Part shown: piece by piece, positions 1,047 to 55,088 of the stretch | Numbering within the stretch: position 1 is the first letter of the stretch | Layout: every line of letters starts with the position of its first letter | Assembly (NCBI GenBank): GCA_045837725.1 | Contig: JBEWZL010000243.1 | Coordinates: 62,001-126,000 of the forward strand | From: Vermamoeba vermiformis | Lineage: Eukaryota | DNA length: 64,000 nucleotides | Direction of reading: 5' to 3' | Made by a program: the position numbers and the translations under genes | The notes under the pieces: generated by a model | The model's input: the letters and a program-made list of their open reading frames with translations, nothing else | Told to the model about the DNA's origin: nothing | The model's database searches: none

Positions 1047-4000
1047 TCAATCCTTCTCTTCTTTTTCGACGTCCATTTGATCGTCACCATTTTCATCCTC
1101 GTCATTGTTATTGTTGGATTTCTTCTTTGTACTTTTCTTCGGTGCTTTTTTCTTCGGTGCGGGCTTCTTTTTCTTAGTGCCATTCGCATTAGTTGGGTCA
1201 TTTGTAGTATTGTCATTTTCTGCTCCGTTTTCAGCATTGTCTTCTTTACGCTCATTCGTGTTGTTTTGGATCTCAAGCGATTGTTTCAGATCCGCTGCTG
1301 ATATTCCTGAGAAGCTGCTCGACTTGCCTAATTTGGCAATTCTGTTGGTACTCGCTCGCACTTCGTTCTCGTCACGAGGTTTCCACGTTTCAGGATTGTA
1401 CTCGATCAGTCCATCCAATGGCATGTTGTTTCTCTTCAAATAGTTTGCGTGTTCGAATGTGTCTTTGAAAAGAATTCGCACCACTGTGATTTGTTTTGTT
1501 TGACCTTGACGGTATGCACGACCAATCGCTTGAGTCTCGAAGCTTTCTTGGTTATGTGCAGGAGGATCTAAGAGGGACTAGCGTTAGTTTGAATTTTAAG
1601 ATCGTAGTGTCCTGATTGACTATTTTCGTAGAAAAATTATCGTTGCATTGGCTTTTGTGGACTGTTGTCTGAAACGTACCTAATAACAATACGTGCGTCG
1701 CTTCAATCATGTTCGTGCCTGCTGAGTTTTCTTGACTGTCCATCATGATCACTTTGAACGCTGCCATTTCTTTCTTGAAGTCTTCGATGGCTTGGACTTT
1801 GGTATTGGCGTTGCTAAACAATAAAATCAGTACTTGTTGGTGAAAAATTTTGATTGACTTGTTTTACCCGCGAACTGAAGTCGTCATGATGCCGTACTCG
1901 TTCAGTAACATTTCCAAGTACAAGTAGCGCGTCTTAGAAAGAAAGAGTTAAGTAAGGACCAGTAAAGATGTAGATTTAGATCGCATTTTTACCATTGAAA
2001 AGATAATAACACGACTGTTGGGCTTCTCTTTGAACAGTTTCTTGAGATAAGCGAGCATTCCAGCAACTTTGGAGCCGTAGCGCTGTTGAAGGGAAACGAA
2101 TTCTTTTTCTTCGCCCGTTTTGGCCTAAGTAAGTGGCGTTAATTAGCAGAAATATGCATATTTATAAAGCTACTGGCGACTTACTCGAACAACTTTTTCA
2201 GGCAAGGTTTGGATCTGCGATAAAAAAAGCGTTAATTCTTGGAATTTCCGCAAGATATAATACCACGTAATGTACTGCACCTCTTGTTCAAGAATTTCAA
2301 TGCCGTTTCGCATAGTATTGACGATTTTTCGATTGAATTCAGCCCTGACGTTCAAGTATTCGAGATGACTTTCAAGCGCTTTCTTTCTAGATGCGTTTTG
2401 TTCCAATGCGTGTTCCTGGCGGGCTACACGCAACTGTTCGTCAGCTGCATTGGCTCGCAGGGTCTGTTGGGTAATACGTTCCTGTACGTAAAACAAAGGT
2501 TAGGTACGGCGTTACGTTGAGTTCCGGATGTACCTTCAGATTTGCCAGCTTAATTGTTGCTACCGATTTTAATCCTTTATGATAGGTGAAAGTGACGCAG
2601 GCGTGATAGGGATCGCGTGTTGTCTCGTAGCTTTCATTGAAGTAAATTGCTCGTTCAATAGGCGAAAGTTCAACGTAATGAACGTCATCCACTGTTTCGG
2701 GAACGGTGATTTCGTCTTTCACTGAATCTTTGGTGTTGCGCCACAAGTAGTCTCGGTAGATTAGCTCTGCTCTATAGTACCTACAAAAAAATTAGTAAGA
2801 TTAGATAATTTCGAAGAATTTTCGGTTAACGTACCCGATTGTGTTTTTGAGCGGTGGTAGGCATAAGAAGTGAAAGAGGTTTCCTGATCCAAAAGGAGTT
2901 GCAGAAACAAACCATTTGCTGCGACCCCACACATTCTTCGACAGATCGATGACAGCGTAGCGATGCAAACAGAACTCTTTGCTTGACTGGTGACCTTCGT
3001 CAAACACCACGCGGTGAAAGAAGAAGTGTTCGATGATTGGGGCCTTCACTTCACTGAAATTTTGATTTGTACGTAATTCTTCAAGCGCTTGTTTGACGTT
3101 ATTGTTCCGTTCTACTTCCGTGAGAGTGCCTTTAGTTCTTCGACTGGGCAAGCAGACGTATTTGAGCGACGCAAACAGCTCATAGACGCACACAATCACG
3201 TCGTATTGCGATCGAAAGTCTTCGTACGTGCATTTCTTCAAGTCTTCGTAATTAGCTACGAGAAGTACGCTCAAATTCGTGGCGCGTGTAATTTCATCGT
3301 GCCATTGCTTTGATATGTGCTCAGGACACATAATTAGCGTTGACTTTGAGGCTATCAGCACCGGATGTGGTTCGAGCTCGGACTTCGGAGGTGCCGCCAA
3401 AACGAGGCCCAGCACTATTGAACGTATTATAAATAAATACATAGCAAGAAATAGCCACCGGATTACCTTCAAACGTCTTGCCAAGTCCAACATCGTCAGC
3501 CAATATTCCACCACGGATTTGTTCTTTGTGAAGGTGTTGATGAAGATTGCGTGGATGAACAATTTTTTGATTGATAGGATCGAAATATACTGCTGAGCCT
3601 TTCCAACGAATGGCAGAGGTGTAGATTACATCTAAACTGAACGGTTAAAGGTCTCCGGATCGGAATGGATCTTGTTTCGTACCTTGCCCAATTTGATCTT
3701 CAACTGACTTCATCCACGTGATTGCATCGAGTTGATATTTGTAAATATTAATGTCCTCTTTGAATCCGTCTGGTTGTCTTTGCGGTACGGTAGATTTCTG
3801 ATAGCCAAAGTGGGTTGGTTTTTTTACATTGTTTTTGCATGCAATGTACTTACCAATGGCCTATTCACGAATGTTGGTTGTCCGGTGGAAGCTGTCACCG
3901 ATGATTCATTCCACTCTGTGCTAATCTGCCGCAATAAAGTATCGGCGTTCGGAATGGTTTTGCAATTTTGTTCTAACACCATAGAATTCAAACTAGAAAT

Positions 4001-4862
4001 CGATTAATTACTAATTATTTTAATAATAAGACTTTCTGCAAATATGTCCATGATAGTTAATTAAAGGGGTCACTCACACTTTGAGATTGATGTGCAATTT
4101 GACTCTCCAAGTTCGCAGTCCATCAATGACCTCCCTTCGCCTTATAATGTTATTGCGCTGCTCAATCGTATACTTCCATAATAATGCATTGTTTCTCTTG
4201 TTGAAATCGAAATCTGTCTCGTAAGGGAAAGCGGCAATGGCTACAAGAGTATCTTGATCATCGTACATGTACTGCAATTAGTTAGTATATTATATAAATG
4301 GTATAATTATAGACTAAATAAAGTGCGCTCAATTCACGTAAAAGTTCAAATAAACTGAAGTTCAATAAATTGACGGTCATAAGATTCGATTATCGTAGGA
4401 GGTTATTATTCGATAACACCAAATATATTTTTGAATATGCGTGCTTACTGCCATAAGGGACCCTTCCTTCTTTGACTGGATCCTGACGGGTGTTCCTGAG
4501 TGAACCGGATCTGATTGCCACAATTTCAGCTCTTCAATTTGTTCTTCTAAATCCAAATGCGCATAATCTTTGAGTCTTTTGTTGCGTTGGAAGTGATACG
4601 CGGCTGGAAATTCAACGGCAGTAAGTTCTGTTACAAACGTCCAATGGAACTCATCGCGTTGGCCGACTCGATACCATTGACGACAAGTCATCGTACATTG
4701 CACGATATCTGAACGTTCGAGTTGACGCAGGAGTTGGAGAACGAGCTCATCTGGAAGTTGATTTTCTTCTCTTGAGTCGTATTTAAGGTCCAATTTCATT
4801 TTCTTTGGTGCCTTTTCATCAACAGAAGGCGTTTCGATTTTTCTTTTGGTTCCTCGAGGCAT
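1047..4862 (-). CDS. F-box + SNF2-family (Rad5/16-like) helicase, tandem copy 1, multi-exon
   Basis: N-terminal F-box LPDELVLQLLRQLERSDIVQCTMTCRQW; Q motif LxKYQLDAITWMKSVE; Walker A GGILADDVGLGKT; TLIMCPEHISKQW; Walker B RVVFDEGH; motif III WFVSATP; YGSKV; GTNMIEATHVLL; motif VI QAIGRAYRQGQ. Confidence 0.88.
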
Positions 4863-5020
4863 CGTTGATTAATGAGGAACGTTGCAAGTTGTGTGTCAAC
4901 GGATCTGAACTCTCTACTATAAATTAGTTAAAAATGCTGTTAAAATAATATTTTAAAAAAGAGGAAGGATTATTTGCGTCAATTTATTGACTGATCGAGT
5001 CAAATCCGAAGTCAGAAAAA
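4862..5020. repeat. Duplicated 5' flank shared with 9015-9170 (part of the ~4.2 kb tandem duplication unit)
   Basis: Near-identical blocks atcgttgattaatgaggaacgttgcaagtt, tgctgttaaaataatattttaaaa and ttatttgcgtcaatttattgactgatcgagtcaaatccgaagtca lie upstream of both SNF2 copies. Confidence 0.8.
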
Positions 5021-5322: not shown

Positions 5323-8300
5323 TTAGTTTTTCGTCTTTCGAGTAACTCGCTTTGCTCCTTTCCGCGAGGCTAATTTGACTGGCTCTTCATTTTCCTTCTT
5401 ATTGTCAACGTCATCACCGTTTAGATTAGCGCTGCCATCATTTTCCGCTCCGTTTTCAGCATTATCTTCTTTGCGTTCATTCGTGTTGTTTTGTATCTCG
5501 AGTGATTGTTTCAGATCCGCTGCTGATATTCCTGAGAAGCTGCTCGACTTGCCTAATTTGGCAATTCTGCTCGGAGTTGTGTCCCTAACTTCGTTGTGAT
5601 GAGGTTTCCACGTCTCAGGATTGTACTCGATCAGTCCATCCAATGGCATGTTGTTTCTCTTCAAGTAGTTTGCGTGTTCGAAGGTGTCTTTGAAAAGAAT
5701 TCGCACCACTGTGATTTGTTTTGTTTGACCTTGACGGTATGCACGACCAATGGCTTGAGTCTCGAAACTTTCTTGGTTACGTGCAGGAGGATCTAAGAGG
5801 GACTAGCGTAGCATGAATTTTAGGATCGTATTGTGGTGTTAGTAAGGGTGTAGCAATAAGATACGCATGATGGTTAAACGAGTGATTTCACTTCGTTTTG
5901 CTACGATTGCCAAATTAGGAAATCCACGTCGAATGATTTGAGATAAAAAATTCAATGGAAGCATACCTAGTAACAATACATGCGTCGCTTCAATCATGTT
6001 CGTGCCTGTTGAGTTTTCTTGACTGTTCATCATGATCACTTTGAACGGCGCCATTTCTTTCTTGAAGTCTTCGATGGCTTGGATTTTGGTATGAACATCA
6101 CTAAACAATAAAATTGCATTAGTTGAGGGTTGGTTTCATTAATGAGTGTACAATCATACCCGCGAACAGAAGTCGTCATAATGTCGTGCTCATTCAATAA
6201 CGTCTCCAGGTACTTATAGCGATTCTGAATCCAATAATAATGTTAATATGAGAACTAACGTTTGAAGTATTTACCAATGAGAATATAATAACACGACTGT
6301 TGGGCTTCTCTTTGAACAGTTTCTTGAGATAAGCGAGCATTCCAGCAACTTTGGAGCCGTAGCGCTGTTGAATTCTAATGAATTCTTTTTCTTCGCCCGT
6401 TTTGGCCTAAGTAACCATATTAGCAAATATTAATCACACTAGCAGATATTAACGTACTTGAGCGAGTTTTTCGGGCAAGGTCTGGATCTTCAATACAAAA
6501 TCATTATTAGGAGGTTTCGAAAAAAAAGGCACGTGGTTTACCTCTTGTTCGAGAATTTCAACGACATTTTGTCGAGTATTAGCAATTCTGCGGGCATTAT
6601 CTGCCTTCTCAAGCAATCTCTCCATCTGAAGCTCAAGCGCTTTCTTTTTTGACTTGCTTTGTTCCGCATTGAGCGCCTGACGAGCTGCATGCACTGCTTG
6701 TGCAGCATCAACATTGCTTGCTTTGAAATATTCAATGTTATTCTGCAAATAAGGGATTACTAACGTCTTGAAACCAAACGTTTACGTACCCGCAGTCGCT
6801 GAAGTTGTGCTTTTGCGACCGATTTTAATCCAGTTTCATAAGTAGATGTGCAACAACATATGTAGTAAGATGAATAGCCACTAAAGTAGAGTGCTCGTTC
6901 AATAGGCGAAAGTTCAACATAATGAACGTCATCCACTGTTTCAGGAACGGTGATTTCGTCTTTCACTGAATCTTTTGTGTTGCGCCACAAGTAGTCTCGG
7001 TAGATTAGTTCGCGTTGATAGTCCCTACAAAAAAATTAGTTTCATTACGGAGTTTCGAATGCAAATGAGCGTACTTGGCCTCTTTAGTTGGCGTTTGTAG
7101 GCATAAAAAGTGATGAAATATGTTCTTCTCTGCCTTGGAGTTGTGGTCTTCAATAGGAGTTGCAGAAACGAACCATTTGCTGCGACCCCACACATTCTTC
7201 GACAGATATACTTCTTCGTTTTTCAATCGGAGTGGTACGTTTGACTGGTGACCTTCATCAAACACCACGCGATGAAAGAAGAAGTGTTCGATGATCGGAG
7301 ATGTCTCGGCACTGAAATTCTGATTTTGATTTGTACGTAACTTTTCAAGCGCTTGTTTGACGCTAGCATTTCGTTCTTTTTCTGTTAGGTTGGGATGTGC
7401 TCTATTTCTGGGCAAGGATGCATACTTAATCGACGAGAATATTTCGTAGACGCACACAATCACGTCGTATTGTGATCGAAAGTCTTCGTACGTGCGTTGC
7501 AACAAAGTATCAACGTCACTCACTAGCAGCACACTTAAGTTTGTTGCACGTGTAATTTCATCGTGCCATTGCTTTGATATGTGCTCAGGACACATAATTA
7601 GCGTTGACTTTGAGGCGATCAGAACTGGATGTGGTTCGATCTCGGACTTCGGAGGCACTGCGAGCACAAGACCAAGTACTACAAGAATTCAGTTAGTACA
7701 TTATATGTCAAAGTAGGTCTATACCTTCAAACGTCTTGCCAAGTCCAACATCATCAGCCAATATTCCACCACGGATTCGTTCTTTGTGAAGGTGTTGATG
7801 AAGATTGCGTGGATGAACGATTTTTTGATTGATAGGATCGAAATATACTGCTGAACCTTTCCAACGAATAGCAGAGGAATAGATTACATCTAAATTGACT
7901 GTTAGGTAAAGGTCGTTCCCTCGGATCCGATCCGATCTGATTTCATACCTTGACCAATTTGATCTTCGACTGATTTCATCCACGTAATTGCATCGAGTTG
8001 ATATTTGTAAAGATTGATGTCTTCTTTGAATCCGTCTGGTTGTCGTTGCGGTACAGTAGATTTCTAATTAAAGATAATGACGTTAGCCAAACAGATGACT
8101 GTTTGTACGGAAAAATGGTAAATACCAATGGCCTATTTGTAAAAGTAGCTAAGCCCTTCATTCTAATGTATTCTTGTGCAGACGATTCGCTCCAATCTAT
8201 CAAAAGTTTGAGTAGCAAATTACTCTCGTTCGGAATGACTGTAAAATTTTGGTCTAACACCATCCAATCTAATCTATCAACAAAAATTATTAATAACGTC

Positions 8301-9015
8301 GATACGGCATAGGCCATAGTCTAACTTACACTTTGAGATTGAGATATAACTTCACGCTCCAACATCGTCGCTCTGCAGGCTGTTTTTTATCTTCATCGCT
8401 GACGTTGCACTGCTCAATAGTGTATTTCCACAGGTGTTCGTTGTTTTTGTCGTTGAAATCAAATTGCTCATAAAATTCATATTTGGCGATGGCCACGAGG
8501 TTGTCATTAGCGTCAAACATGGACTAAAATATCATAATTAATTTAAACACTGACGCAGTAGGTAAAATAGTAGGATAGAATATTATTAGAATATTTACCA
8601 GGGTAATGCCAAGGGGTTCCTTCTTTGACTGGATCCGGACGGGTGTTCCTGAATGAACTGGATCTGATTGCCACCGCTCTAACTCTTCGATTTTTTGGTC
8701 TAAAGTTAAACGTAGGTTTTTTGGTGGTTTTTTGACGCGTTGAATATAATAGGCCTTTGGCTTCTCCCGAAGTTGGAGTTCTGCTATGAAAGTCCAATGG
8801 AACTCATCACGTTGGCCTACTCGATACCATTGACGACAAGTCATCGTATATTGCACGATATCTGAACGTTCGAGTTGGCGCAGGACTTGGAGAACGAGCT
8901 CATCTGGAAGTTGATTTTCTTCTCTCGAGTCGTATTTAAGGTCCAATTTCATTTTCTTTGGTGCCTTTTCATCAGCGGAAGGTGTTTCGATTTTTCTTTT
9001 GGTTCCTCGAGGCAT
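5323..9015 (-). CDS. F-box + SNF2-family helicase, tandem copy 2, multi-exon
   Basis: Same motifs and exon layout as copy 1 (MPRGTKRKIETPS start, F-box, LADDVGLGKT, DEGH, SATP, QAIGRAYRQGQ). Confidence 0.88.
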
Positions 9016-9887
9016 CGTTGATTAATGAGGAACGTTGCAAGTTCTGTGTCAACGGGATCTGAGCTCTTTGCCAAAATCGAATTAATATGCTGTTAAAATA
9101 ATATTTTAAAAATAAAGAGGTATTATTTGCGTCAATTTATTGACTGATCGAGTCAAATCCGAAGTCAAAAAAGAAACAAAATCTGTGTGTCAAGAAGAAA
9201 AGTGGGTAATCCACTGTACCTTTTTCAGGTGTGGTTATGTGGCTCTTGTAGCACTAACTAGGCTCATTTTGGATTGGGACCGGCGCCTGCCAATTTTTAA
9301 CAAATTAAAGTTGAGAAAAATTCGCTCATTTACGCAATATTGACTAATAATACCACCATACTATGGCATTATTTATTTTCTCGAGAGGCCAACCGTCGAA
9401 TTGCGATTAACGTGCAAGCCTGTGTCCACAAGCGGATGGTGCACGAACTCACCTTTAAAATAAAATAACAAAATAATTTATCTGATAACACGTTAAAAAT
9501 GTGCACTAAGGAGAAGGCAAAAGACGTAGAGAACAATGCACGAAAAAAAAACGGGCAGATACCTCGGCGATCGAGCTACGGCCAGGAAAAAATCAAGGTG
9601 GGGGCTGTGAACTGTAAATTGTTTTAATTATAGCCTAAATCTATTTGATTTTTAGGTGGCTTTTCAACAAGATTCCAATTTGTTTTCCTTCGCATCTGTT
9701 TAGGAACGGTGGGACGTGGCAGTTTATCTTGTTGTATTCTCAGACCTTCCTGTGATCCTTTAGATGCCTAAGTATAAATATATGCGCATTTGTGACAATC
9801 ATTTCAATTCAAAACAAGCATCTTAGCGTACTACAACAAATTCGAACCCAAATCCACAACAAATTTTATCTTAACGTCAATCTCATC

Positions 9888-20351: not shown

Positions 20352-21897
20352 TTAGGTTGTAAAATTAAGAGGCACGTTTTCTACAATGACAATAGGCAAC
20401 TTCACTATCGCTTTCGACAATTTAATCCACAAATAGTGTCTCTTTCGTATGACATTGCTGTAGAATATCGACTGTTCAAAATCTTTCGGGATGTGCACTG
20501 CGACCCGTTGCGTCCTCGTGTCTTTCGCTGGAACAAGAAATTCGATGTCCCACGATACTTCTTTTTTGAAATGTGCGTTGTGTGGTACATGTTCTTCAGT
20601 TGCTGAATAATATGTTGGGCAGATTGTACAGCTGCGGATCGAGATCTTCAGGTTTTTGACAGGTTTTGATTTTAAATTCGCAACAGTAATGTCCAGCAGT
20701 ACTCTTTGCCCTGGTAAGTATACATTTGCGGGACACGAGGCTGTTAGCTTGTATTCGTGAACAATTCCTAAAACGTAAGTGTCCGAGGATCCAGTCACCG
20801 GCTGTGATTTGCGCAGTTCGGAGCTAACGTCGTATTTAGGGAGCACTGGTATATTAATAGACTTGTGCATTTTTTTGGAGCCATTTTCGCCTTCAATAAA
20901 TACTTCAACGCCGTAAATGATGGATCCAGTTTGACAGTCAGCAAGTCCGCTCTCTGATTGCATGCTGCCCGATAAATATTCTCCTTTTTCACCACAGTGA
21001 GGAAATGGAACGTCAAATTTGAAGCGGTGGAGGCCGTTGGCAAATGTTATCGGCGAACGATGCGGATGTACTTTGATGTTAAATATTTTGTTGAACGGCT
21101 TTGATTCGAGTTTTTTGTGCTTATATCGAGATTCATTATAATCGTATATCTCCCTAATGAACGGTGAGTGCTCCTCGCAATAGAGCCGTAAAAAGACTCC
21201 CTTGGCAACGAGATCTTTGTTCGTTTTGAAAATAACTAGCCCGCTAATTCGTTTCCCCATACAATTAGCGTATACAGTCGTAGGATTTAGCATTATGTTG
21301 ATATCACTGCCTCCTAACAGATCTGAAATTTGGGTGTTAGATTCGGAAACAAAAATATTATTTCAGATATCTATTGTCAGAATATTCTATAGATAAATCA
21401 CATTAAATACTTACATTTAACATGCTCGATGTACTTTTGTTTGTAAAACACTGTTCTCGGAGAAGTTTCGTTAACGACCGTCGGATCTTGACCTGTCAAA
21501 CTTGTGTAATGTTTAAACCACAAGTGATTGTCTTCTGAGCCTATTTTCCAATCTCTGCACACTGTTCCTGCCTGAAATCCGGTCAATAAAAGAAAAACAA
21601 GTTGAAGTAAGACATCTTTCTGAAAAAATCTTTCTGATGTCCATTTAGATTAAATCTTTAATAATTAAAGAGCAATTAATACAGTAGTATTATTGTTAGG
21701 TAATTAAAAAATATTCCGGTTTTTGCTCGAAAAATCCGACTTTGATGGCACTTACCGCAATTACATCGTTGAAACTGACGCTGTCGAATATTTTCACCAA
21801 TATCTGCATATCATAAATTAGTAACGCAAGTAATGATTACTGAAATGTGCGTACTAACCTCGATCGGGAGAGGAGGCGTGCTGCGGCGGATGTCCAT
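20352..21897 (-). CDS. F-box + arrestin-fold protein, tandem copy 1 (4 exons)
   Basis: Exons give MDIRRSTPPLPIE|ILVKIFDSVSFNDVIA|AGTVCRDWKIGSEDNHLW (F-box). These are followed by arrestin-N-like (ISGLVIFK..GVFLRLYCEE, GLHRFKFDVPFP, GSIIYGVEVFI) and arrestin-C-like (VYLPGQRVLLDITVANLKSKPVKNLKISI, VKLPIVI) segments. Confidence 0.75.
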
Positions 21898-22145: not shown

Positions 22146-23722
22146 TTAAGATGAGGTGTTGAGCGGATTTACGCTAGTTATTCGCGGTGTGCCCACAATA
22201 ACAATAGGAAACCTCAATAAGGCCTCGGATGATAGTCGGACCCATAGGTAGTGTCGTCGTTGCATCACTCTGCTGTACATAATTGACTGTTCAAAATCTT
22301 TCGGGATGCGCAGTTCGATCTGATGCGTTTTTGTGTCTTTCGCTGGAACGGGGAAGTCAATATCCCACCATATGTCTTCTTTAGTAGGTACTTCTGATAA
22401 GGTCGTAGAGCCTGCTGCAGCACTTTGTGGGCAAATTCCAACGCTGCGGATCGAGATCTTCAATTTTTTGACTGGCTTTGACTTTGAATTAGCGACGGTA
22501 ATTGCCAATGACACTGTTTGTCCTAGCAGGAATACATCCGTCGGGCACGTGACTGATAGCGTGTATTCATGAAAAACTCCGAAAAAGGTGTAACTCTCCT
22601 TCGTGCCTTTTAACGGCTTAGCTTTGTGCAATTCGTCTCTAATATCGTATTTAGGCAGTGCTTTAAGGTTGACTGTTGAGGTATGCAATTTTTTGGCGCC
22701 AGTCTCGTCTTCAATAAATGCTTCAACTCCGTACATAATGTATCCAGACATGAAATCGAAAAGTCGGTCTTCTGTTTGAAAGCTGCCGGATAAATATTCG
22801 CCATTTTGACCGCTATGAGGGAACGGCACGTCAAATCTGAAGCAGTAGACGCCCTTAGTGAATTTCAGCGGTGTTTGATCTGGATTTACTTTTACGTTGA
22901 AAATCTTGTTAAATGGCTTTGACTCAACTGTATCGTATCTATAGGTTGTTTTATATTCATCTTGCACGAATTTCATGAATGATGTCTTTTCCTCGCAGAA
23001 GAGTCGGACGAAGACTCCTCTGGCCACTAGATCTTTCTTCGCTTTCAAAATAATTAGACCTCGTAGTCGTTGTCCAATGCAATTAGCGAATATAGTTGTT
23101 GTAGGCATTGTTAGATTGAAATCGTTGTCTCCTAACAGATCTAAATATAACGGCATTAGATCGAGAAAACAAACACAACACATTTTCAAACACGCGTTGC
23201 GTTATTCTCAATGTTATTAGTGATGATAAATACTTACGTTTAATATGATCGATATACTTTTGTTTGTAAAACACGGTTCTCGACGATGTTTCATGAACGA
23301 ACATTGGATCTTGACTTGTTTGTCTCGAGTAATGTTCCAGCCAAAGGTGATTGTCTTCTGAGCCTATTTTCCAGTCTCTACAAACTGTTCCTGCCTGAAT
23401 ATATATGTAAGAGGTGGGTGGTGTCAATGAATTCATTTCGAAACGAAGATCCGACTCAATTGTTGAGATGGCGGATATTTTTGAATCAATAAATATGAAA
23501 CGTAGCAAAATATAGTAATTACTAGTGACATCTAATTTATTAACGATTTGTTTAATAATGTTTTACCTTGATTAAATCATCGAAGCTGATGTAGTTGAAT
23601 ATTTTGACCAATATCTGGATAATAAAATATTAGTGTTAATATCTATCTATCGTACAACGGAGAGAATATCTAATAACGCGAGAACGAACCTCGATCGGAA
23701 GAGGTGGCGTCTGGAGCTCCAT
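22146..23722 (-). CDS. F-box + arrestin-fold protein, tandem copy 2 (4 exons)
   Basis: MELQTPPLPIE|ILVKIFNYISFDDLIK|AGTVCRDWKIGSEDNHLW, then the long arrestin-like exon; same intron positions as copy 1. Confidence 0.75.
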
Positions 23723-38498: not shown

Positions 38499-38802
38499 AT
38501 AATAGGTTGTAGTATCAAGTACTGACAGCACCACTTCATTTAAGCGCGGCTCGAATTGTTGAATTCTTTTGACAAGAAGTTGCTTGGTGCCAAAGTCAAG
38601 TTGCATCTCGACGGTTCGTTTCTGCGGTATCCAGCCAGAAGATTATCATTACATCAAATAACGTAGTTAGAATCGATAAATTGTACCGCTAACTACTTAA
38701 CTACACCTCAAAAACCTAGCTTGATTTTTTTTACAATAGAGTTGGTTCCAACTTTGAGGGGTAACGACAAAAAAACTGCACCAAATTTACATATCGATCC
38801 AC

Positions 38803-38814
38803 AAAAAAAAAAAA
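38803..38814 (-). terminator. Oligo-T (T12) Pol III-type terminator of the tRNA-like RNA
   Basis: Run of 12 A on + strand beginning 4 nt after the 3' strand of the terminal stem. Confidence 0.65.
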
Positions 38815-38818
38815 GGAA

Positions 38819-38959
38819 CGACCGCTGGCGGGAGTTACACCCGCATCCACTCGCATTTCAAGTCGGACAAACTTGTAGCGCGGTTCCCGAGAGAACCGCG
38901 CTCGCCTTGTGAACCCCGAAGGGTCAGACGAGGTCTCTATTATTGAGATACAACGGTCG
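38819..38959 (-). ncRNA. tRNA-like structured RNA with the anticodon loop replaced by a 73-nt three-hairpin domain
   Basis: Terminal stem CGACCGTTG/CAGCGGTCG, TA, D-arm TCTC-AATAATA-GAGA, stem CTCGT/GCGAG, variable loop TGGAT, T-arm GCGGG-TGTAACT-CCCGC, then TTCC and T12. Confidence 0.75.
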
Positions 38960-39016
38960 ATAGCGAGACAGCTGCGTCAGGTGTTTTGGACCTGACTATT
39001 TTTAGGTAACTAATAA

Positions 39017-39024
39017 TTGTGGGA
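39017..39024 (-). promoter_or_regulatory. DUSE/USE-like upstream element TCCCACAA
   Basis: Exact fit to the Dictyostelium upstream sequence element consensus [A/T]CCCA[C/T]AA, 58-65 nt upstream of the tRNA-like RNA. About 60 nt is the spacing known for DUSE at snRNA and Class I RNA genes. Confidence 0.5.
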
Positions 39025-39186
39025 CATTATTTGTGGATAGAAATATCTGCGATTGTTAGCATCATTCGTTTAATAATCGTATTCGAGGCACAACTATCCC
39101 TCGGCCCTTTTTTTCAACTTTTTTGCTTTTGTGTTACAAGCAGATTTTTTTTCGATTTAGAATTCCCCCCAATCATAATACCACAA

Positions 39187-43971: not shown

Positions 43972-45766
43972 ATGGCCTCCTTCCGACTCGACATTGATTG
44001 GCTAGCGGGAGATATTGACGGAGAAATTAAGCCAAAATTTTGGCGAGAAGGCCATGTGTTGCGTTACGGCCCTTCAACAGACCTCGATCAGATGTACAAC
44101 ATTGAAGATCTGGTCGTTAAAGCTCTACATGACGACGACGAGTCATATAAAACAATTCAATATGTGTTGAATAATTCTTCACCGAGAAGTCTGGAGATCC
44201 AGTGGTTAGAACAAGATCAATCATCAAAACCGTTTTGAACAGCAATGGATCACGACAGAACAAATGCAAATTCTAGCCGATAGTTTAAGCAACAATAAGA
44301 CATTGCAATCGTTCATATTCAACGATAAAAATATCTCGTATATAGGAAACAAGCAAACAATAGAGATCTTGGCAAAAGGGATCAACGGATCGAATCTAAA
44401 ATTTGTAGGGTTCGTCAGCATTCCTGAATTTATTATGTATACGCTATTCAACACTTTATCAACCAATTATACACTACGACAGCTTTATTTGAAGAGTTCA
44501 ACGGGACTTGGATCTCGCCTCGACAATTTGATCTTAAGCAGCAATATTACAAAGCTACATTTAATACAAATAGTCCTCAATGACAGTGGAATTGAGTCAA
44601 TTAAGAATATATTAACAAATACTAAGACATTAGAGACTTTGGAATTACGTCGTTTTGAATTGCGAACATTTTTCAAAAATTTCAACGACCTTTGCAGCGG
44701 CCTTAAAGAAAATAGATCGTTGAAGACGTTAATCATCGGTTCAGCAGTGTTATTAGTAGAAAATAATATTATAGCATTAATAACAGCACTTAAAAGTCAC
44801 CCAACCATCGACTCGTTAAATATTCAAGAACTTAATAGTCATAATTTTGACTTGATCACAACGAATTTATTAGGCGATGATAGTACATTGACGTCTATAT
44901 CAATTAATAAGCCTACGAGCGATAACGTTAGTCTTCAGCCATTTAACGGAGAAGAGTCGGATCTGTATCTCACCAGCCAAGCACTAAGAAACTTTGGAGA
45001 GGTGTTAGCTGCAAACACAAAATTACAGCATTTATTTCTCGGAAGAATTATTGATTTTAATGGCGCAGCCAAAAACGAGTCAATATTGCTCAACGCATTG
45101 AAATTGAACAGGCATCTTTTGACGCTGGATCTACTACTCTACAGTCATGATGCGATAATACAAGTATTACACCATAATACATCTTTAACCAAGTTAATCG
45201 TGAAAAAAAATGCCATCTGGGATGCGGCCAAATTTTTCACAGCAATTAGACAGCATAAGAATTTGACCAGCTTAGATATTTCATATTTAGACTATGGTTT
45301 CACTAGTACCGATGAAATATTTGGCGAAGCGTTGCACGATCTGATAGTAAATTCGAGATTGAGAGAATTAAAATGCAGTCACCCAACGAACCGATCTGCT
45401 TATTTTTCAATTCCTTCATTATTATCCAGCCTTAAATATAATGACTCATTGACGAGTGTTGAATTATTAACAGCTAATAAAACAAGAAGGCTATTGGACT
45501 TCAATTTCGTTGCGGATGTGTTTGCAGTCAACAAAACGCTGATTCATCTGAACACGAATATTCAAGAAAAGGTTATTATAGAGCCTTATTTGAAGAAGAA
45601 TAGAGGGTATCAATTGGACGCAATAATATTAGCATACAACGTAGTTAGATCCGAACACGCGACAATGTTTCCAAACGAGATCTGGCTTCAGATATTTTCT
45701 CATATAGGCACGTTTTATAAAGCAATAGACATAGTCTTTTATGGCAAGCAAAATAAACGGAGTTAG
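43972..45766 (+). CDS. Intronless RNI-like LRR protein with C-terminal F-box-like motif; +1 frameshift at 44233-44238
   Basis: Repeats such as LSNNKTLQSF, LKENRSLKTLII, LAANTKLQHLFL, LKYNDSLTSVEL; C-terminus YLKKNRGYQ..MFPNEIWLQIFSHI. ORF 43972-44238 overlaps the open +1 frame from 44210. Confidence 0.75.
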
Positions 45767-53806: not shown

Positions 53807-55088
53807 TTAGTAGCGCGGGATCACCTTCTCGATCGGCACTCGGCAGAACGGACAAGAGTTATTATTTTTGCTCTTGACCAATGTCTCGCAGCTATTGCAG
53901 ACACTATGACCGCACGGGACAATCGTCCTAAAAAAAGAGATAAGCAACGACAGGCAAAAGGGAAGGCAAAAAAATTTGTCGACACCGGCAGGATTCGAAC
54001 CTGCGCGGGCAGAGCCCAGAGGATTTCTAGTCCGCCGCCTTAACCACTCGGCCACGGTGTCTTGTTGTGTCGGATTTTCGAGGGGTGCAAGTACCCAGCC
54101 GATACGAGGACTCTCGCATGCACGAGGATCTTGTTATTTGCTTACCTGTTAAGTCTGTTATCGAAGCAAATCGAGCACACGCGATCCTCAATCATTCTCG
54201 AAGCGTTCTCTCGCAAGTGCTTGTTTTCCTTGCGCAGCTCACTCAAGCGATCTTCAAAGCATTGCTTCAGGATGGTCAGCTGTCGCTCCAACTTCTCTTG
54301 GCCATCCTTGTTTTTGGTGTTTTTCATATTCAGAACCAATTCCATCATCTCCCAAATCTAGAAACGCGAGTTGTCGATTCAATTCAAGTTCCCAGTCAAA
54401 AAGTCGCAAAATGCACACTTACGTTTCGCTCTAACGACTCGATTCGCTCGCGTACTTGTTGGTTCTCGTCATTTAATACTTGGTTTTCCTTCCAGAGCTT
54501 CTTGTTCTCGGCCAGCAGTTGTTGACCTTCGAGCACGAGACGATCGATCTGGAAAAAGGGTTAAAATTAGCACGTATAATTATATTTTCACTCATACCTC
54601 GTCTGTCTTCCTCTTCCAGAACCATATTACGAAGCCAATTATTGTCACTACGCCTGCAAAAAATTTTGATTAAGATCGAGACAAAATCAAAACTGAGATT
54701 ATTTGTATTAATTATGACAATAAGGGGCGTCAATGATCCAATCAGAGTGCATATTAATTTAATTTTGAGACCCGAAGATTTCCTTCAATCGTGAAATTGA
54801 AATTTTGAGTTTGCCCGTTAAAACTTCAGATTATTTCAAAAAATGAATTAGACTGCTATATTTACCTGCTCCAATAAGCAAAATCTTAGTAAATATTCCA
54901 TAGCCACGAGCGCCCTGCACTACGACAGGCGCGTCGTCTCTGAAAATTGATTTGACCGCTGAACTCAAATGATTCAGCACTTGAGTTGCCAAAGGCTTCT
55001 CGACTGTTGGAACAGTAACACGTCTATTAAGGACATCTGTTTTGGATGCCATTAATACACGCGCGGTCATATCTTCCATGCTCTCCAT
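53807..55088 (-). CDS. Membrane-anchored coiled-coil C3HC4 RING E3 ligase (5 exons)
   Basis: TM GIFTKILLIGA|GVVTIIGFVIWFWKRK, coiled coil, RING CSICFDNRLN|RTIVPCGHSVCNSCETLVKSKNNNSCPFCRVPI. Confidence 0.85.
53980..54061 (-). tRNA. tRNA-Ser-AGA: tRNA-Ser (anticodon AGA), inside an intron of the RING gene
   Basis: GACACCG-TGGCCGAGTGGTTAAGGCG-GCGGA-CTAGAAA-TCCTC-long variable arm-GCAGG-TTCGAAT-CCTGC-CGGTGTC-G; intact A/B boxes; T7 terminator 5 nt downstream. Confidence 0.95.

What the first reader, a model, noticed from the sequence alone, without database searches (positions are those of the whole stretch)
38803..39024. tRNA-shaped RNA whose anticodon loop is replaced by a three-hairpin domain, with its own upstream element and terminator
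Seen (minus strand): CGACCGTTG TA TCTC-AATAATA-GAGA C CTCGT [73 nt] GCGAG TGGAT GCGGG-TGTAACT-CCCGC CAGCGGTCG TTCC T12. All tRNA arms are present with correct spacing. The 73-nt insert (38855-38927) forms three hairpins: TGACCC-TTCG-GGG(T)TCA with a C(UUCG)G tetraloop, the 11-bp AGCGCGGTTCT-CTCG-GGAACCGCGCT, and CAAGTT-TGTCC-GACTTG. Normally invariant elbow bases have changed in a compensated way: G19:C56 to A:U, G18:U55 to A:G and Levitt pair A15:U48, while U8:A14 and U54:A58 are kept. A decaying pseudogene would not be expected to do this. The internal A/B boxes are degenerate as a result, but TCCCACAA (Dictyostelium DUSE consensus) sits 58-65 nt upstream. Inference: an independently transcribed, non-decoding tRNA mimic carrying an extra structured module, conceptually like tmRNA or bacterial tRNA-like Y RNAs but with a different architecture. 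By eye it does not fit the eukaryotic tRNA-Sec, SRP, vault or snRNA patterns I recall.
Basis: partly seen in the sequence, partly recalled or inferred. Interest (0 to 1): 0.92.

Follow-up and report, generated by a model that had tools for sequence, protein, structure and literature searches.

The report
Conserved tRNA-shaped small RNA gene family
A roughly 145-base structured small RNA gene, with its own upstream promoter box and T-run terminator, is conserved in a related microbe and fits no catalogued RNA family; its ends look like a tRNA, but a 73-base folded module sits where the anticodon loop should be.

Summary
On the minus strand, 38815-38959 is a 145-nt, very stable fold (z -4.98) followed by T12.

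A 78%-identical homologue lies on an unrelated metagenome contig. It has almost the same length (146 nt, identical 73-nt insert), a T-run, and a GTCCCACAA box at exactly -66..-58. Its spacer and flanks are random, and three stem pairs changed on both sides.

A wastewater RNA-seq library holds only the interior of the RNA: unspliced, depth 16-55, flanks 0. The organism's own RNA-seq shows paralogues with the same ends but different central hairpins.

No Rfam family reaches threshold. The tRNA model aligns the homologue end to end at 25.9 bits (cut-off 29) with a 71-nt insert, but gives no match for the window copy. ARAGORN calls neither.

This is a real, conserved, probably expressed, unclassified small-RNA gene family with tRNA-like acceptor, D and T modules. 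The proposed anticodon stem and third hairpin are not supported: folding and the homologue favour a local hairpin instead. A spliced decoding tRNA, a SINE and a pseudogene are all unlikely. Function is untested; my best guess is a non-decoding tRNA-mimic RNP RNA.

The parts
39017..39025 (-). Upstream box GTCCCACAA, at -66..-58 from RNA position 1. Putative promoter element, DUSE/USE-like.
   Evidence: 9 of 9 bases are identical and the spacing is identical (57-nt spacer) in the window and L001. The spacer itself is 19 of 57 identical and the 25 nt further upstream are 8 of 25 identical.
39031..39038 (-). Second, degenerate copy of the box (ATCCACAA). Window only.
   Evidence: Read. Not present in L001.
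38960..39016 (-). 57-nt non-conserved spacer. In the window it holds a TATA-like CTAAAAATAG and a 7-bp hairpin.
   Evidence: 33% identity to L001. The hairpin appears and is absent from L001.
38815..38959 (-). The RNA body, 145 nt. RNA position i = window 38960 - i.
   Evidence: Fold z = -4.98. 111 of 145 bases identical to L001. Covariance model scores 175 and 174.8 bits. RNA-seq-labelled contigs cover 38824-38946.
38951..38959 (-). Closing ('acceptor') stem, 5' strand (positions 1-9). Pairs with 38819-38827.
   Evidence: Pair probabilities 0.92-1.0. Pair 9-133 changes G-C to A-U in L001. Pair 3-139 is broken in L001.
38934..38948 (-). D-like hairpin UCUC-AAUAAUA-GAGA (positions 12-26).
   Evidence: Stem and loop are identical in L001 except that pair 12-26 is lost. 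Pair probabilities 0.83-0.99.
38903..38932 (-). Hairpin B (positions 28-57).
   Evidence: The inner stem is kept in L001, with G-U changed to A-U. Pair 32-50 changes U-A to A-U, compensatory. Pair probabilities 0.77-1.0.
38877..38902 (-). Hairpin C (positions 58-83). 11 bp with a CUCG loop; this is the variable module.
   Evidence: L001 has a 10-bp hairpin with a GCAA loop at the same place. Paralogue reads run into other G+C-rich hairpins there (table 7).
38845..38871 (-). Conserved block UUUGUCC...UUGAAAUGCGAGUGGAU (positions 89-115).
   Evidence: 9 of 9 hairpin-D pairs are kept in L001, with probabilities 0.66-1.0. Paralogue reads vary at positions 97-102 without visible compensation (table 3).
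38828..38844 (-). T-like hairpin GCGGG-UGUAACU-CCCGC (positions 116-132).
   Evidence: Pair 118-130 changes G-C to A-U in L001. The same arm occurs in a phage tRNA-Arg. There is a local match to the tymovirus tRNA-like T arm at 10.1 bits, E = 6.8.
38819..38827 (-). Closing stem, 3' strand (positions 133-141).
38803..38818 (-). 3' tail UUCC followed by T12. Putative Pol III terminator.
   Evidence: L001 has TTTTATTTTTTTT at the same place.

Best explanation
This is one gene of a small family of independently transcribed, stable small RNAs of about 140-145 nt in an unidentified microbial eukaryote.

Transcription (inferred). A GTCCCACAA box fixed about 60 nt upstream sets the start. The T-run that begins 4 nt after the closing stem ends the transcript, so RNA polymerase III is likely.

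Fold. The two ends form a tRNA-like module: a 9-bp closing stem that contains a 7-bp acceptor, a 4-bp D-like arm with a 7-nt A-rich loop, and a 5-bp T-like arm with a 7-nt loop that abuts the acceptor strand. The 73 nt where an anticodon loop would sit are kept in the mature RNA and fold into a UUCG-capped hairpin, a variable 10-11-bp hairpin and a conserved UUUGUCC...GAAAUGCGAG block.

Function (inferred, untested). The RNA cannot decode. Most likely it works as a ribonucleoprotein RNA. The tRNA-like handle would engage tRNA-handling proteins such as La, end-processing enzymes or export factors. The conserved central block would carry the specific function, and the variable hairpin would distinguish paralogues.
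For: Gene status:
- The L001 homologue is 77.9% identical over 154 nt, and nothing else on the 4198-nt contig matches the window.
- The GTCCCACAA box sits at -66..-58 in both copies. The spacer is 19 of 57 identical, against 111 of 145 for the RNA.
- A T-run follows in both copies.

Structure:
- z = -4.98 for the window and -3.31 for L001, with 0 of 200 shuffles folding as well in each.
- Both copies fold independently to the same architecture.
- Both-sided changes occur at pairs 9-133 and 118-130 and at 32-50.
- The insert is 73 nt in both copies.

RNA evidence:
- X5, a library labelled RNA-Seq cDNA, has 4 contigs covering only 38824-38946 at depth 16-55. Flank bins are 0, sequencing adapter sits at both ends, and there is 1 difference.
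- No joints were found in any of the 4 runs laid.

Family:
- All 14 reads laid from X19 and all 8 from X21 are under 95% alike. They lie on the 3' and 5' thirds and run on into other G+C-rich hairpins.

tRNA likeness:
- Rfam tRNA aligns L001 over model positions 1-71 at 25.9 bits, E = 0.0012, with a 71-nt insert in the anticodon loop.
- My model R1 matches a bona fide phage tRNA-Arg end to end at 27 bits.

Not coding:
- The 21-codon frame in the insert gives unrelated peptides in the two copies.
Against: - Only two full-length sequences exist, so covariation has no statistical weight. 63 of 500 and 110 of 500 shuffles reach the observed scores.
- The window copy gets no tRNA match at E <= 10 in three searches.
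- ARAGORN calls neither copy at default settings, even with the insert removed in silico: 0 of 8 variants for each copy.
- The anticodon stem has predicted probability of about 0, and forcing it costs 6.6 kcal/mol in the window and 5.9 in L001.
- The tool flags X5 as 'RNA? (probably DNA)'.
- The organism's own RNA-seq has 0 reads at least 95% alike to this copy.
- The polymerase, the RNA ends, any partner proteins and any function are all untested.
Confidence: 0.5

Rival explanations
1. Same conserved gene, but not a working tRNA mimic. The RNA folds as a six-way junction: a closing stem plus five local hairpins (D-like, B, C, D and T-like). Its resemblance to tRNA is either vestigial, from an ancestor that was a tRNA gene, or coincidental. 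It would then act like an snRNA- or Class-I-type regulatory or scaffold RNA, through the conserved single-stranded UUUGUCC and GAAAUG motifs.
For: - The MFE and centroid folds of both copies give this architecture, as does the RNAalifold consensus.
- 97.2% of cells are paired under this model, against 90.8% for the cloverleaf.
- The U32-to-A change that breaks the anticodon stem in L001 is compensated at position 50 inside hairpin B.
- The D and T loops lack the conserved tRNA bases.
Against: - Energy models ignore the tertiary contacts that stabilise tRNA-like folds.
- Paralogue reads change positions 98, 100 and 101 with no visible compensation in 107-111. This weakens the inner helix of hairpin D (table 3).
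- The exact tRNA spacing of all elements and the end-to-end tRNA-model alignment of L001 would then be coincidence.
Confidence: 0.27
2. A vault-RNA-like or Y-RNA-like RNA. This would be a Pol III transcript whose paired ends and tRNA-like boxes are conserved while the centre varies between paralogues, and which is bound by a TROVE-domain protein (TEP1 or Ro60) or housed in vault particles.
For: - The anatomy fits: a terminal stem, conserved ends, a variable centre and several paralogues.
- It has an upstream promoter box and a T-run.
- The defining traits of vault and Y RNAs are recalled here, not taken from a call.
Against: - There is no Vault or Y_RNA match at E <= 10 in four searches of the two copies.
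- The internal A and B boxes are degenerate.
- No genome is held, so the presence of MVP, TEP1 or Ro60 genes could not be checked.
- Passages of PMC13100048 gave no amoebal vault RNA sequence to compare with.
Confidence: 0.1
3. An intron-containing tRNA gene, Val-like (anticodon GAC in the window, AAC in L001). A 66-nt intron would be spliced out to give a decoding tRNA with an unusual elbow.
For: - In the cloverleaf reading, positions 32-37 are C-U-(G/A)-A-C-C in both copies.
- With the insert removed in silico, ARAGORN at 90% stringency calls the window copy tRNA-Val(gac) in 3 of 8 variants and tRNA-Phe(gaa) in the other 5.
- The L001 tRNA-model score is 25.9 bits.
Against: - No joint appears in any of the 4 runs laid, and the abundant form in X5 carries the insert.
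At lower stringency it gives inconsistent identities: Phe for the window and Asn for L001.
- With the insert removed, L001 is called only at 80% stringency.
- The would-be 5' splice site lies inside the C(UUCG)G stem, not in a bulge.
- One paralogue consensus appears to change the middle 'anticodon' base together with its pairing partner, as a stem would (table 7; agreement 0.67, alignment made by eye).
- G18 G19 and U55 C56 are absent.
Confidence: 0.05
4. A tRNA-derived SINE copy or a decaying tRNA pseudogene.
For: - Several related sequences exist in the organism's transcriptome.
- The ends are tRNA-like.
Against: - A promoter box separated from the body by 57 non-conserved nt is kept at identical spacing on an unrelated contig. 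Retroposed copies would not carry it.
- The copies show compensatory changes and an identical insert length.
- There is no second copy in 64 kb of window or on L001.
- The locus has no A-rich tail.
Confidence: 0.03

Closest known systems
tRNA (Rfam RF00005), including intron-bearing pre-tRNA
   Same: A 7-bp acceptor inside the closing stem, a UA linker, a 4-bp D stem with a 7-nt loop, a 5-nt variable loop, and a 5-bp T stem with a 7-nt loop that abuts the acceptor strand. The tRNA model aligns L001 end to end.
   Different: 73 structured nt replace the 7-nt anticodon loop and are retained in the RNA seen. G18 G19, U55 C56 and the A/B boxes are missing. The promoter is upstream. Scores are below threshold for L001 and absent for the window.
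tRNA-like modules of non-decoding RNAs: tmRNA, bacterial YrlA, mascRNA and the tymovirus tRNA-like structure (traits recalled)
   Same: A tRNA-like acceptor/T-arm handle is joined to a non-tRNA part. The T arm resembles the tymovirus tRNA-like T-arm consensus in 13 of 15 positions, counting two compatible stem-end positions (E = 6.8, not significant).
   Different: It is nuclear and eukaryotic, with its own gene and an upstream promoter. ARAGORN and Rfam give no tmRNA call. There is no conserved tag reading frame. The topology differs from YrlA (recalled).
Vault RNA / Y RNA (traits recalled)
   Same: A probable Pol III transcript in the 90-150 nt size range, with paired ends, conserved termini, a variable centre and several paralogues.
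   Different: No Rfam match. The A and B boxes are degenerate. No link to vault or Ro proteins could be tested.
Dictyostelid Class I RNAs and their DUSE promoter (PMC7919456 and PMC3188802, passages read)
   Same: A box of the form [AT]CCCA.AA about 60 nt upstream, a terminal stem formed by the 5' and 3' ends, a variable middle, a downstream T-run, and a multigene family.
   Different: Class I RNAs are described there as 50-60 bases long with a conserved motif CCTTACAGC next to the 5' stem. This RNA is 145 nt, lacks that motif and has tRNA-like arms. The authors did not expect DUSE outside Dictyostelia, and the taxon here is unknown.
Phage tRNA-Arg(TCT) on viral contig L003
   Same: 23 consecutive bases (variable loop plus T arm) are identical to L001. 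It also has an A-rich 7-nt D loop without GG.
   Different: It is an ordinary 75-nt tRNA with a 7-nt anticodon loop and an encoded CCA, scoring 54.6 bits in Rfam. Its 5' half is only generically tRNA-like. It is the only 1 of 80 matches to that T-loop pattern that lies in a tRNA.

Membership tests
tRNA (RF00005) | Reaches the family score threshold or is called by a tRNA finder | tested here: not met
   Window: no tRNA match at E <= 10. L001: 25.9 bits against a cut-off of 29. ARAGORN default, with or without introns, of 2 copies.
tRNA (RF00005) | Cloverleaf with acceptor, D, anticodon and T arms at standard spacing | tested here: inconclusive
   The spacing fits. However, the anticodon stem has pair probability of about 0 in both copies and loses 1 of 5 pairs in L001.
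tRNA (RF00005) | 7-nt anticodon loop in the mature RNA | tested here: not met
   The insert is 73 nt in both copies. The X5 contig spans it unspliced, and no joints appear in any of the 4 runs laid.
tRNA (RF00005) | Conserved G18 G19 and U54 U55 C56 with internal A/B boxes | tested here: not met
   The D loop is AAUAAUA and the T loop is UGUAACU in both copies.
tRNA (RF00005) | CCA end and aminoacylation | not testable with these tools
   The contigs stop 9 and 13 nt inside the predicted ends.
Vault RNA (RF00006) / Y RNA (RF00019) | Match to the family model | tested here: not met
   No match at E <= 10.
Vault RNA (RF00006) / Y RNA (RF00019) | Probable Pol III transcript with paired ends, conserved termini, a variable centre and paralogues | tested here: met
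   The polymerase is inferred from the T-run.
Vault RNA (RF00006) / Y RNA (RF00019) | Bound by MVP/TEP1 or Ro60 | not testable with these tools
   No genome is held, and there are no protein data.
Dictyostelid Class I RNA | DUSE-type box about 60 nt upstream | tested here: met
   TCCCACAA lies at -65..-58 in 2 of 2 copies. The consensus comes from passages in PMC3188802.
Dictyostelid Class I RNA | Length of about 50-60 nt with the conserved CCTTACAGC-type motif next to the 5' stem | tested here: not met
   This RNA is 145 nt and the motif is absent from the sequence. The family traits come from passages read.
tmRNA | tmRNA call or model match, and a conserved tag reading frame | tested here: not met
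   ARAGORN -m finds none and Rfam finds none. The peptides of the open 21-codon frame agree only at their ends.

The most novel reading that the evidence does not exclude
A lineage-wide family of nuclear, Pol III-made tRNA mimics that are matured like tRNAs (RNase P and Z trimming to a 7-bp acceptor, then CCA addition, perhaps even charging) yet carry a 73-nt effector module in place of the anticodon loop. This would be a eukaryotic counterpart, in concept, of tmRNA or YrlA. Paralogues would be specialised through the variable hairpin.
Probability: 0.08. Interest if true: 0.9.

Novelty: new variant of a known kind. Interest (0 to 1): 0.68.

Why it matters
Structured small RNAs with their own promoters are few, and most have central cellular roles. 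This is a conserved, probably abundant family that no catalogue holds, found in a poorly sampled group of environmental eukaryotes. It keeps the outline of a tRNA while replacing the decoding loop. It is therefore a clean case for asking how tRNA genes are turned into other RNAs, and which tRNA-handling proteins such mimics use. The conserved GTCCCACAA box at fixed spacing also gives a handle for finding the other small-RNA genes of this lineage.

Tried and rejected
Homologue searches:
- One metagenome pattern scan gave 1 true homologue, L001.
- The genome-contig scan gave 1 chance match inside a 704-aa bacterial ORF, L002.
- Five viral-contig scans were run. The T-arm pattern gave 1 hit, phage tRNA L003. 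The D-arm 16-mer gave 74 loci, none of which the model confirms; the best are 14.5 and 14.3 bits with E about 0.5. Two other patterns gave 0. The T-loop...CCA pattern gave 118 stretches, of which 80 were fetched and examined and 1 lies in a tRNA.
- Translating the RNA and searching protein collections for spurious ORFs over homologous loci found nothing.

Taxon:
- Relatives of two window proteins occur almost only in unnamed JGI/IMG and Logan assemblies, with single NCBI and ENA records.
- Ciliate and TGA=W genetic codes do not open the frames.
- The taxon is left unnamed.

Sequencing runs:
- No listed holder is on record as RNA.

Other RNA identities considered by eye (motifs recalled) and through Rfam at E <= 10, with no match: snRNAs U1-U7, U11/U12, U4atac/U6atac, SRP, RNase P/MRP, 7SK, telomerase RNA (no template-like repeat), tRNA-Sec (no UCA, no 6-bp D stem), box C/D and H/ACA snoRNAs, and hammerhead ribozyme.

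Other points:
- AAUUUGUCC resembles an Sm/U7-type site (recalled), but this was not tested.
- A tmRNA-like tag frame was rejected.
- Other [AT]CCCA[ACT]AA boxes in the window (6 in all) have no comparable RNA downstream.
- Literature searches found no description of this RNA.
Full report
**1. The observation**

- A 9-base 5' strand (CGACCGTTG) pairs with CAGCGGTCG.
- After a UA linker comes a 4-bp hairpin with the loop AATAATA.
- Then come CTCGT, 73 nt (38855-38927), GCGAG, TGGAT and the hairpin GCGGG-TGTAACT-CCCGC, which directly abuts the 3' strand of the closing stem.
- TTCC and T12 (38803-38814) follow.
- TCCCACAA lies at 39017-39024.

I number the RNA so that position i equals window coordinate 38960 - i; the RNA runs from 1 to 145.

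The 145-nt stretch folds to -66.8 kcal/mol, z = -4.98, and none of 200 dinucleotide shuffles folds as well. The opposite strand also folds well (-57.0 kcal/mol, z = -4.33). The strand assignment therefore rests on the T-run, the upstream box, the G-U pairs and the 10 kcal/mol difference.

ARAGORN finds only a tRNA-Ser at 53980-54061 in the window. Rfam at gathering thresholds finds only that same tRNA.

**2. Is it a gene?**

A pattern built from the 3' third, with N where reads showed variation, found one locus in the metagenome collection, L001.
- L001 carries a 146-nt homologue at 3171-3316 on its minus strand.
- blastn gives 77.9% identity over 154 nt. Nothing else on the 4198-nt contig matches the 64-kb window, either as DNA or as translated ORFs. 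The two loci are therefore not syntenic.
- In the alignment the RNA is 111 of 145 identical.
- The 57-nt spacer upstream is 19 of 57 identical, the 25 nt beyond it are 8 of 25, and the 13 nt after the T-run are 3 of 13.
- A 9-nt box, GTCCCACAA, is 9 of 9 identical and sits at exactly -66..-58 in both copies.
- L001 also ends in TTTTATTTTTTTT.

The 8-mer alone is not rare in the window: 2 found against 1.46 expected. Its significance comes from this positional conservation.

A conserved box at fixed distance, a conserved body and a T-run, all set in otherwise unrelated DNA, are the signature of an independent small-RNA gene with an external promoter. Polymerase III is inferred from the T-run.

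Passages of PMC7919456 and PMC3188802 describe a very similar box in dictyostelid amoebae. DUSE has the form [AT]CCCA[AT]AA, lies about 60-63 nt upstream, and is used by both Pol II and Pol III small-RNA genes. From memory, the plant snRNA upstream element (TCCCACATCG) is also similar. I could not establish the taxon, so I call the box DUSE/USE-like and claim no more.

**3. RNA evidence**

I had one read-laying run, and used it on four runs.

- **X5** is a wastewater library labelled 'METAGENOMIC RNA-Seq cDNA', which the tool marks 'RNA? (probably DNA)'.
  - Its 4 contigs cover only 38824-38946 (RNA positions 14-136) at summed depths of 16-55.
  - Every bin outside that range is 0.
  - Transposase adapter sequence sits directly at both ends.
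  - There is 1 difference (38875 G>C, RNA position 85).
  - One 130-nt contig spans 38830-38946, running through the whole 73-nt insert without a joint.
  - A single-copy DNA locus of a rare eukaryote would not give depth on 123 bases and none beside them. A short, abundant RNA converted to cDNA explains this best.
  - The fragment ends lie 9 and 13 nt inside the predicted termini. This is consistent with ends near positions 1 and 145 but does not map them.
- **X19 and X21** are RNA-seq runs carrying the same species label as the best DNA holder.
  - They gave 14 and 8 reads, none at least 95% alike to this copy.
  - The reads lie on 38803-38870 and 38905-38955 and then run on into other G+C-rich hairpins.
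  - These are paralogues that share the two ends and differ in the centre.
  - The window's own copy was not seen in these libraries.
- **X3**, an aquifer metagenome, holds only the downstream flank, 38662-38812.
- No joints were reported in any of the 4 runs.

**4. Structure**

Both copies fold independently to the same architecture:
- a closing stem;
- a D-like hairpin;
- hairpin B, a C(UUCG)G hairpin on a short basal helix;
- hairpin C, 11 bp with a CUCG loop in the window and 10 bp with a GCAA loop in L001;
- hairpin D, made of 92-95/112-115 plus 97-101/107-111;
- a T-like hairpin.

Changes on both sides that keep a pair occur at three places:
- 9-133, G-C to A-U;
- 118-130, G-C to A-U;
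- 32-50, U-A to A-U.

In the paralogue reads, 118 G-to-U and 130 C-to-G both occur, which would give a U-G pair, but the reads cannot be phased (table 3). The insert is 73 nt in both copies even though they differ by three indels.

With two sequences the statistics are empty: 63 of 500 and 110 of 500 shuffles reach the observed scores.

| Measure | Cloverleaf | Local-hairpin model |
|---|---|---|
| Cells paired | 90.8% | 97.2% |
| Third hairpin / hairpin D pairs kept in L001 | 2 of 6 | 9 of 9 |
| Anticodon stem pairs kept in L001 | 4 of 5 | not applicable |
| Predicted pair probability | about 0 | 0.66-1.0 (hairpin D) |
| Cost of forcing the anticodon stem | 6.6 kcal/mol (window), 5.9 (L001) | none |

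On the other side, paralogue reads change positions 98, 100 and 101 while 103-117 stay invariant. This weakens the inner helix of hairpin D. Energy models also ignore tertiary contacts. I leave the choice between the two models open.

**5. How tRNA-like is it?**

- The Rfam tRNA model aligns L001 end to end (model 1-71) at 25.9 bits, E = 0.0012, below the cut-off of 29. It places a 71-nt insertion in the anticodon loop and uses a 7-bp acceptor that starts at RNA position 3.
- The window copy gives no tRNA match at E <= 10 in three searches.
At 80% stringency its calls disagree: Phe for the window and Asn for L001.
- With 66 nt removed in silico, default ARAGORN of 8 variants of either copy. 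At 90% stringency it calls the window copy only.
- The T arm matches the tymovirus tRNA-like T-arm consensus locally at 10.1 bits, E = 6.8, which is not significant.
- A phage contig, L003, carries a genuine tRNA-Arg(TCT) scoring 54.6 bits in Rfam. Its variable loop and T arm are identical to L001 over 23 bases, and its 7-nt D loop also lacks GG.
- That T loop is rare. Only 1 of 80 matches to GGTGTAACTCC...CCA in viral contigs lies in a tRNA.

This shows that such an elbow can exist in a real tRNA.

**6. What it is not**

- **Known RNA families.** No vault, Y, SRP, RNase P/MRP, snRNA, tRNA-Sec, tmRNA, telomerase or ribozyme model matches at E <= 10.
- **Protein-coding.** The frame between two in-frame stops in the insert is open in both copies. 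The peptides agree only at their ends, PFGV...CP.
- **SINE or pseudogene.** Such copies would not carry a promoter box 57 nt upstream. No further copy is found in the window or on L001; the model searched 799,420 bases in 78 sources.
- **Spliced tRNA.**
  - The cloverleaf reading would give Val-type anticodons, GAC in the window and AAC in L001.
  - No spliced form was seen, and the 5' cut site would lie inside the UUCG hairpin stem.
  - One paralogue consensus appears to change the middle base together with its pairing partner (agreement 0.67, aligned by eye).

**7. Most likely mechanism**

Shown:
- a conserved gene with an external box and a T-run;
- a stable conserved fold;
- a retained insert;
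- a family with a variable central hairpin.

Inferred:
- Pol III transcription;
- a stable RNP RNA whose tRNA-like handle engages tRNA-handling proteins;
- a conserved central block (the UUCG hairpin, UUUGUCC and GAAAUGCGAG) that carries the specific function.

Confidence is about 0.5 for the tRNA-mimic reading and about 0.27 for the same gene folded as a six-way junction with only vestigial tRNA likeness. The vault/Y-like, pre-tRNA and SINE readings are less likely.

**8. Novelty**

Six literature searches, including a search for the sequence motifs themselves, found no description of this RNA. Supplements were closed and may list ncRNAs I could not see.

It fits the loose class of tRNA-like or tRNA-derived Pol III RNAs, but its architecture and promoter match no catalogued family. 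I rate it a new variant of a known kind.

Noticed in passing
window 53980-54061 (-): An ordinary tRNA-Ser(AGA), 57.6 bits in Rfam, followed by a T-run. It is the only catalogued RNA in the window.
   Followed up: yes
window 1050-4868 and 5326-9021 (-): A tandem duplicate of a gene block with F-box and SNF2-related ORFs. The ORF starts are nearly identical in the two copies.
   Followed up: partly
window 20352-21293 and 22146-23189 (-): Two neighbouring arrestin N+C domain ORFs. Their closest relatives, 48-54% identical, are unnamed records from NCBI, Logan, JGI and ENA.
   Followed up: partly
window 44264-45766 (+): A 500-aa intron-less ORF whose only relatives (42-52% identical) are in JGI/IMG and Logan assemblies. 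Those relatives carry the precomputed family PF27087, but my Pfam scans of the ORF and of P0001 gave nothing.
   Followed up: partly
window 38974-38994 (-): A 7-bp hairpin (GUCAGGU...ACCUGAC) lies between the promoter box and the RNA. It is present in the window only and is not conserved in L001.
   Followed up: yes
window 39031-39038 (-): A second, degenerate copy of the box (ATCCACAA) lies 5 nt upstream of GTCCCACAA. It is absent from L001.
   Followed up: partly
L003 1-5030 (+): A phage-like contig with a cluster of 8 tRNA genes. Its tRNA-Arg(TCT) at 4473-4547 has a non-canonical D loop and the T loop UGUAACU, and shares 23 consecutive bases with the L001 RNA.
   Followed up: partly
L002 5420-5441 (+): The 22-nt pattern also occurs by chance inside a 704-aa ORF of a Patescibacteria MAG contig. 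The flanks are unrelated to the RNA.
   Followed up: yes
L001 11-2355 (-): The contig that carries the homologue encodes, in several short exons, a protein that by eye resembles the MIF4G-domain factor UPF2. This was not tested against any library.
   Followed up: no
window 38662-38812: An aquifer metagenome contig (X3) is identical to the downstream flank and stops inside the T-run. This would fit the assembly graph branching at a multi-copy RNA, or simply a break at the homopolymer.
   Followed up: no
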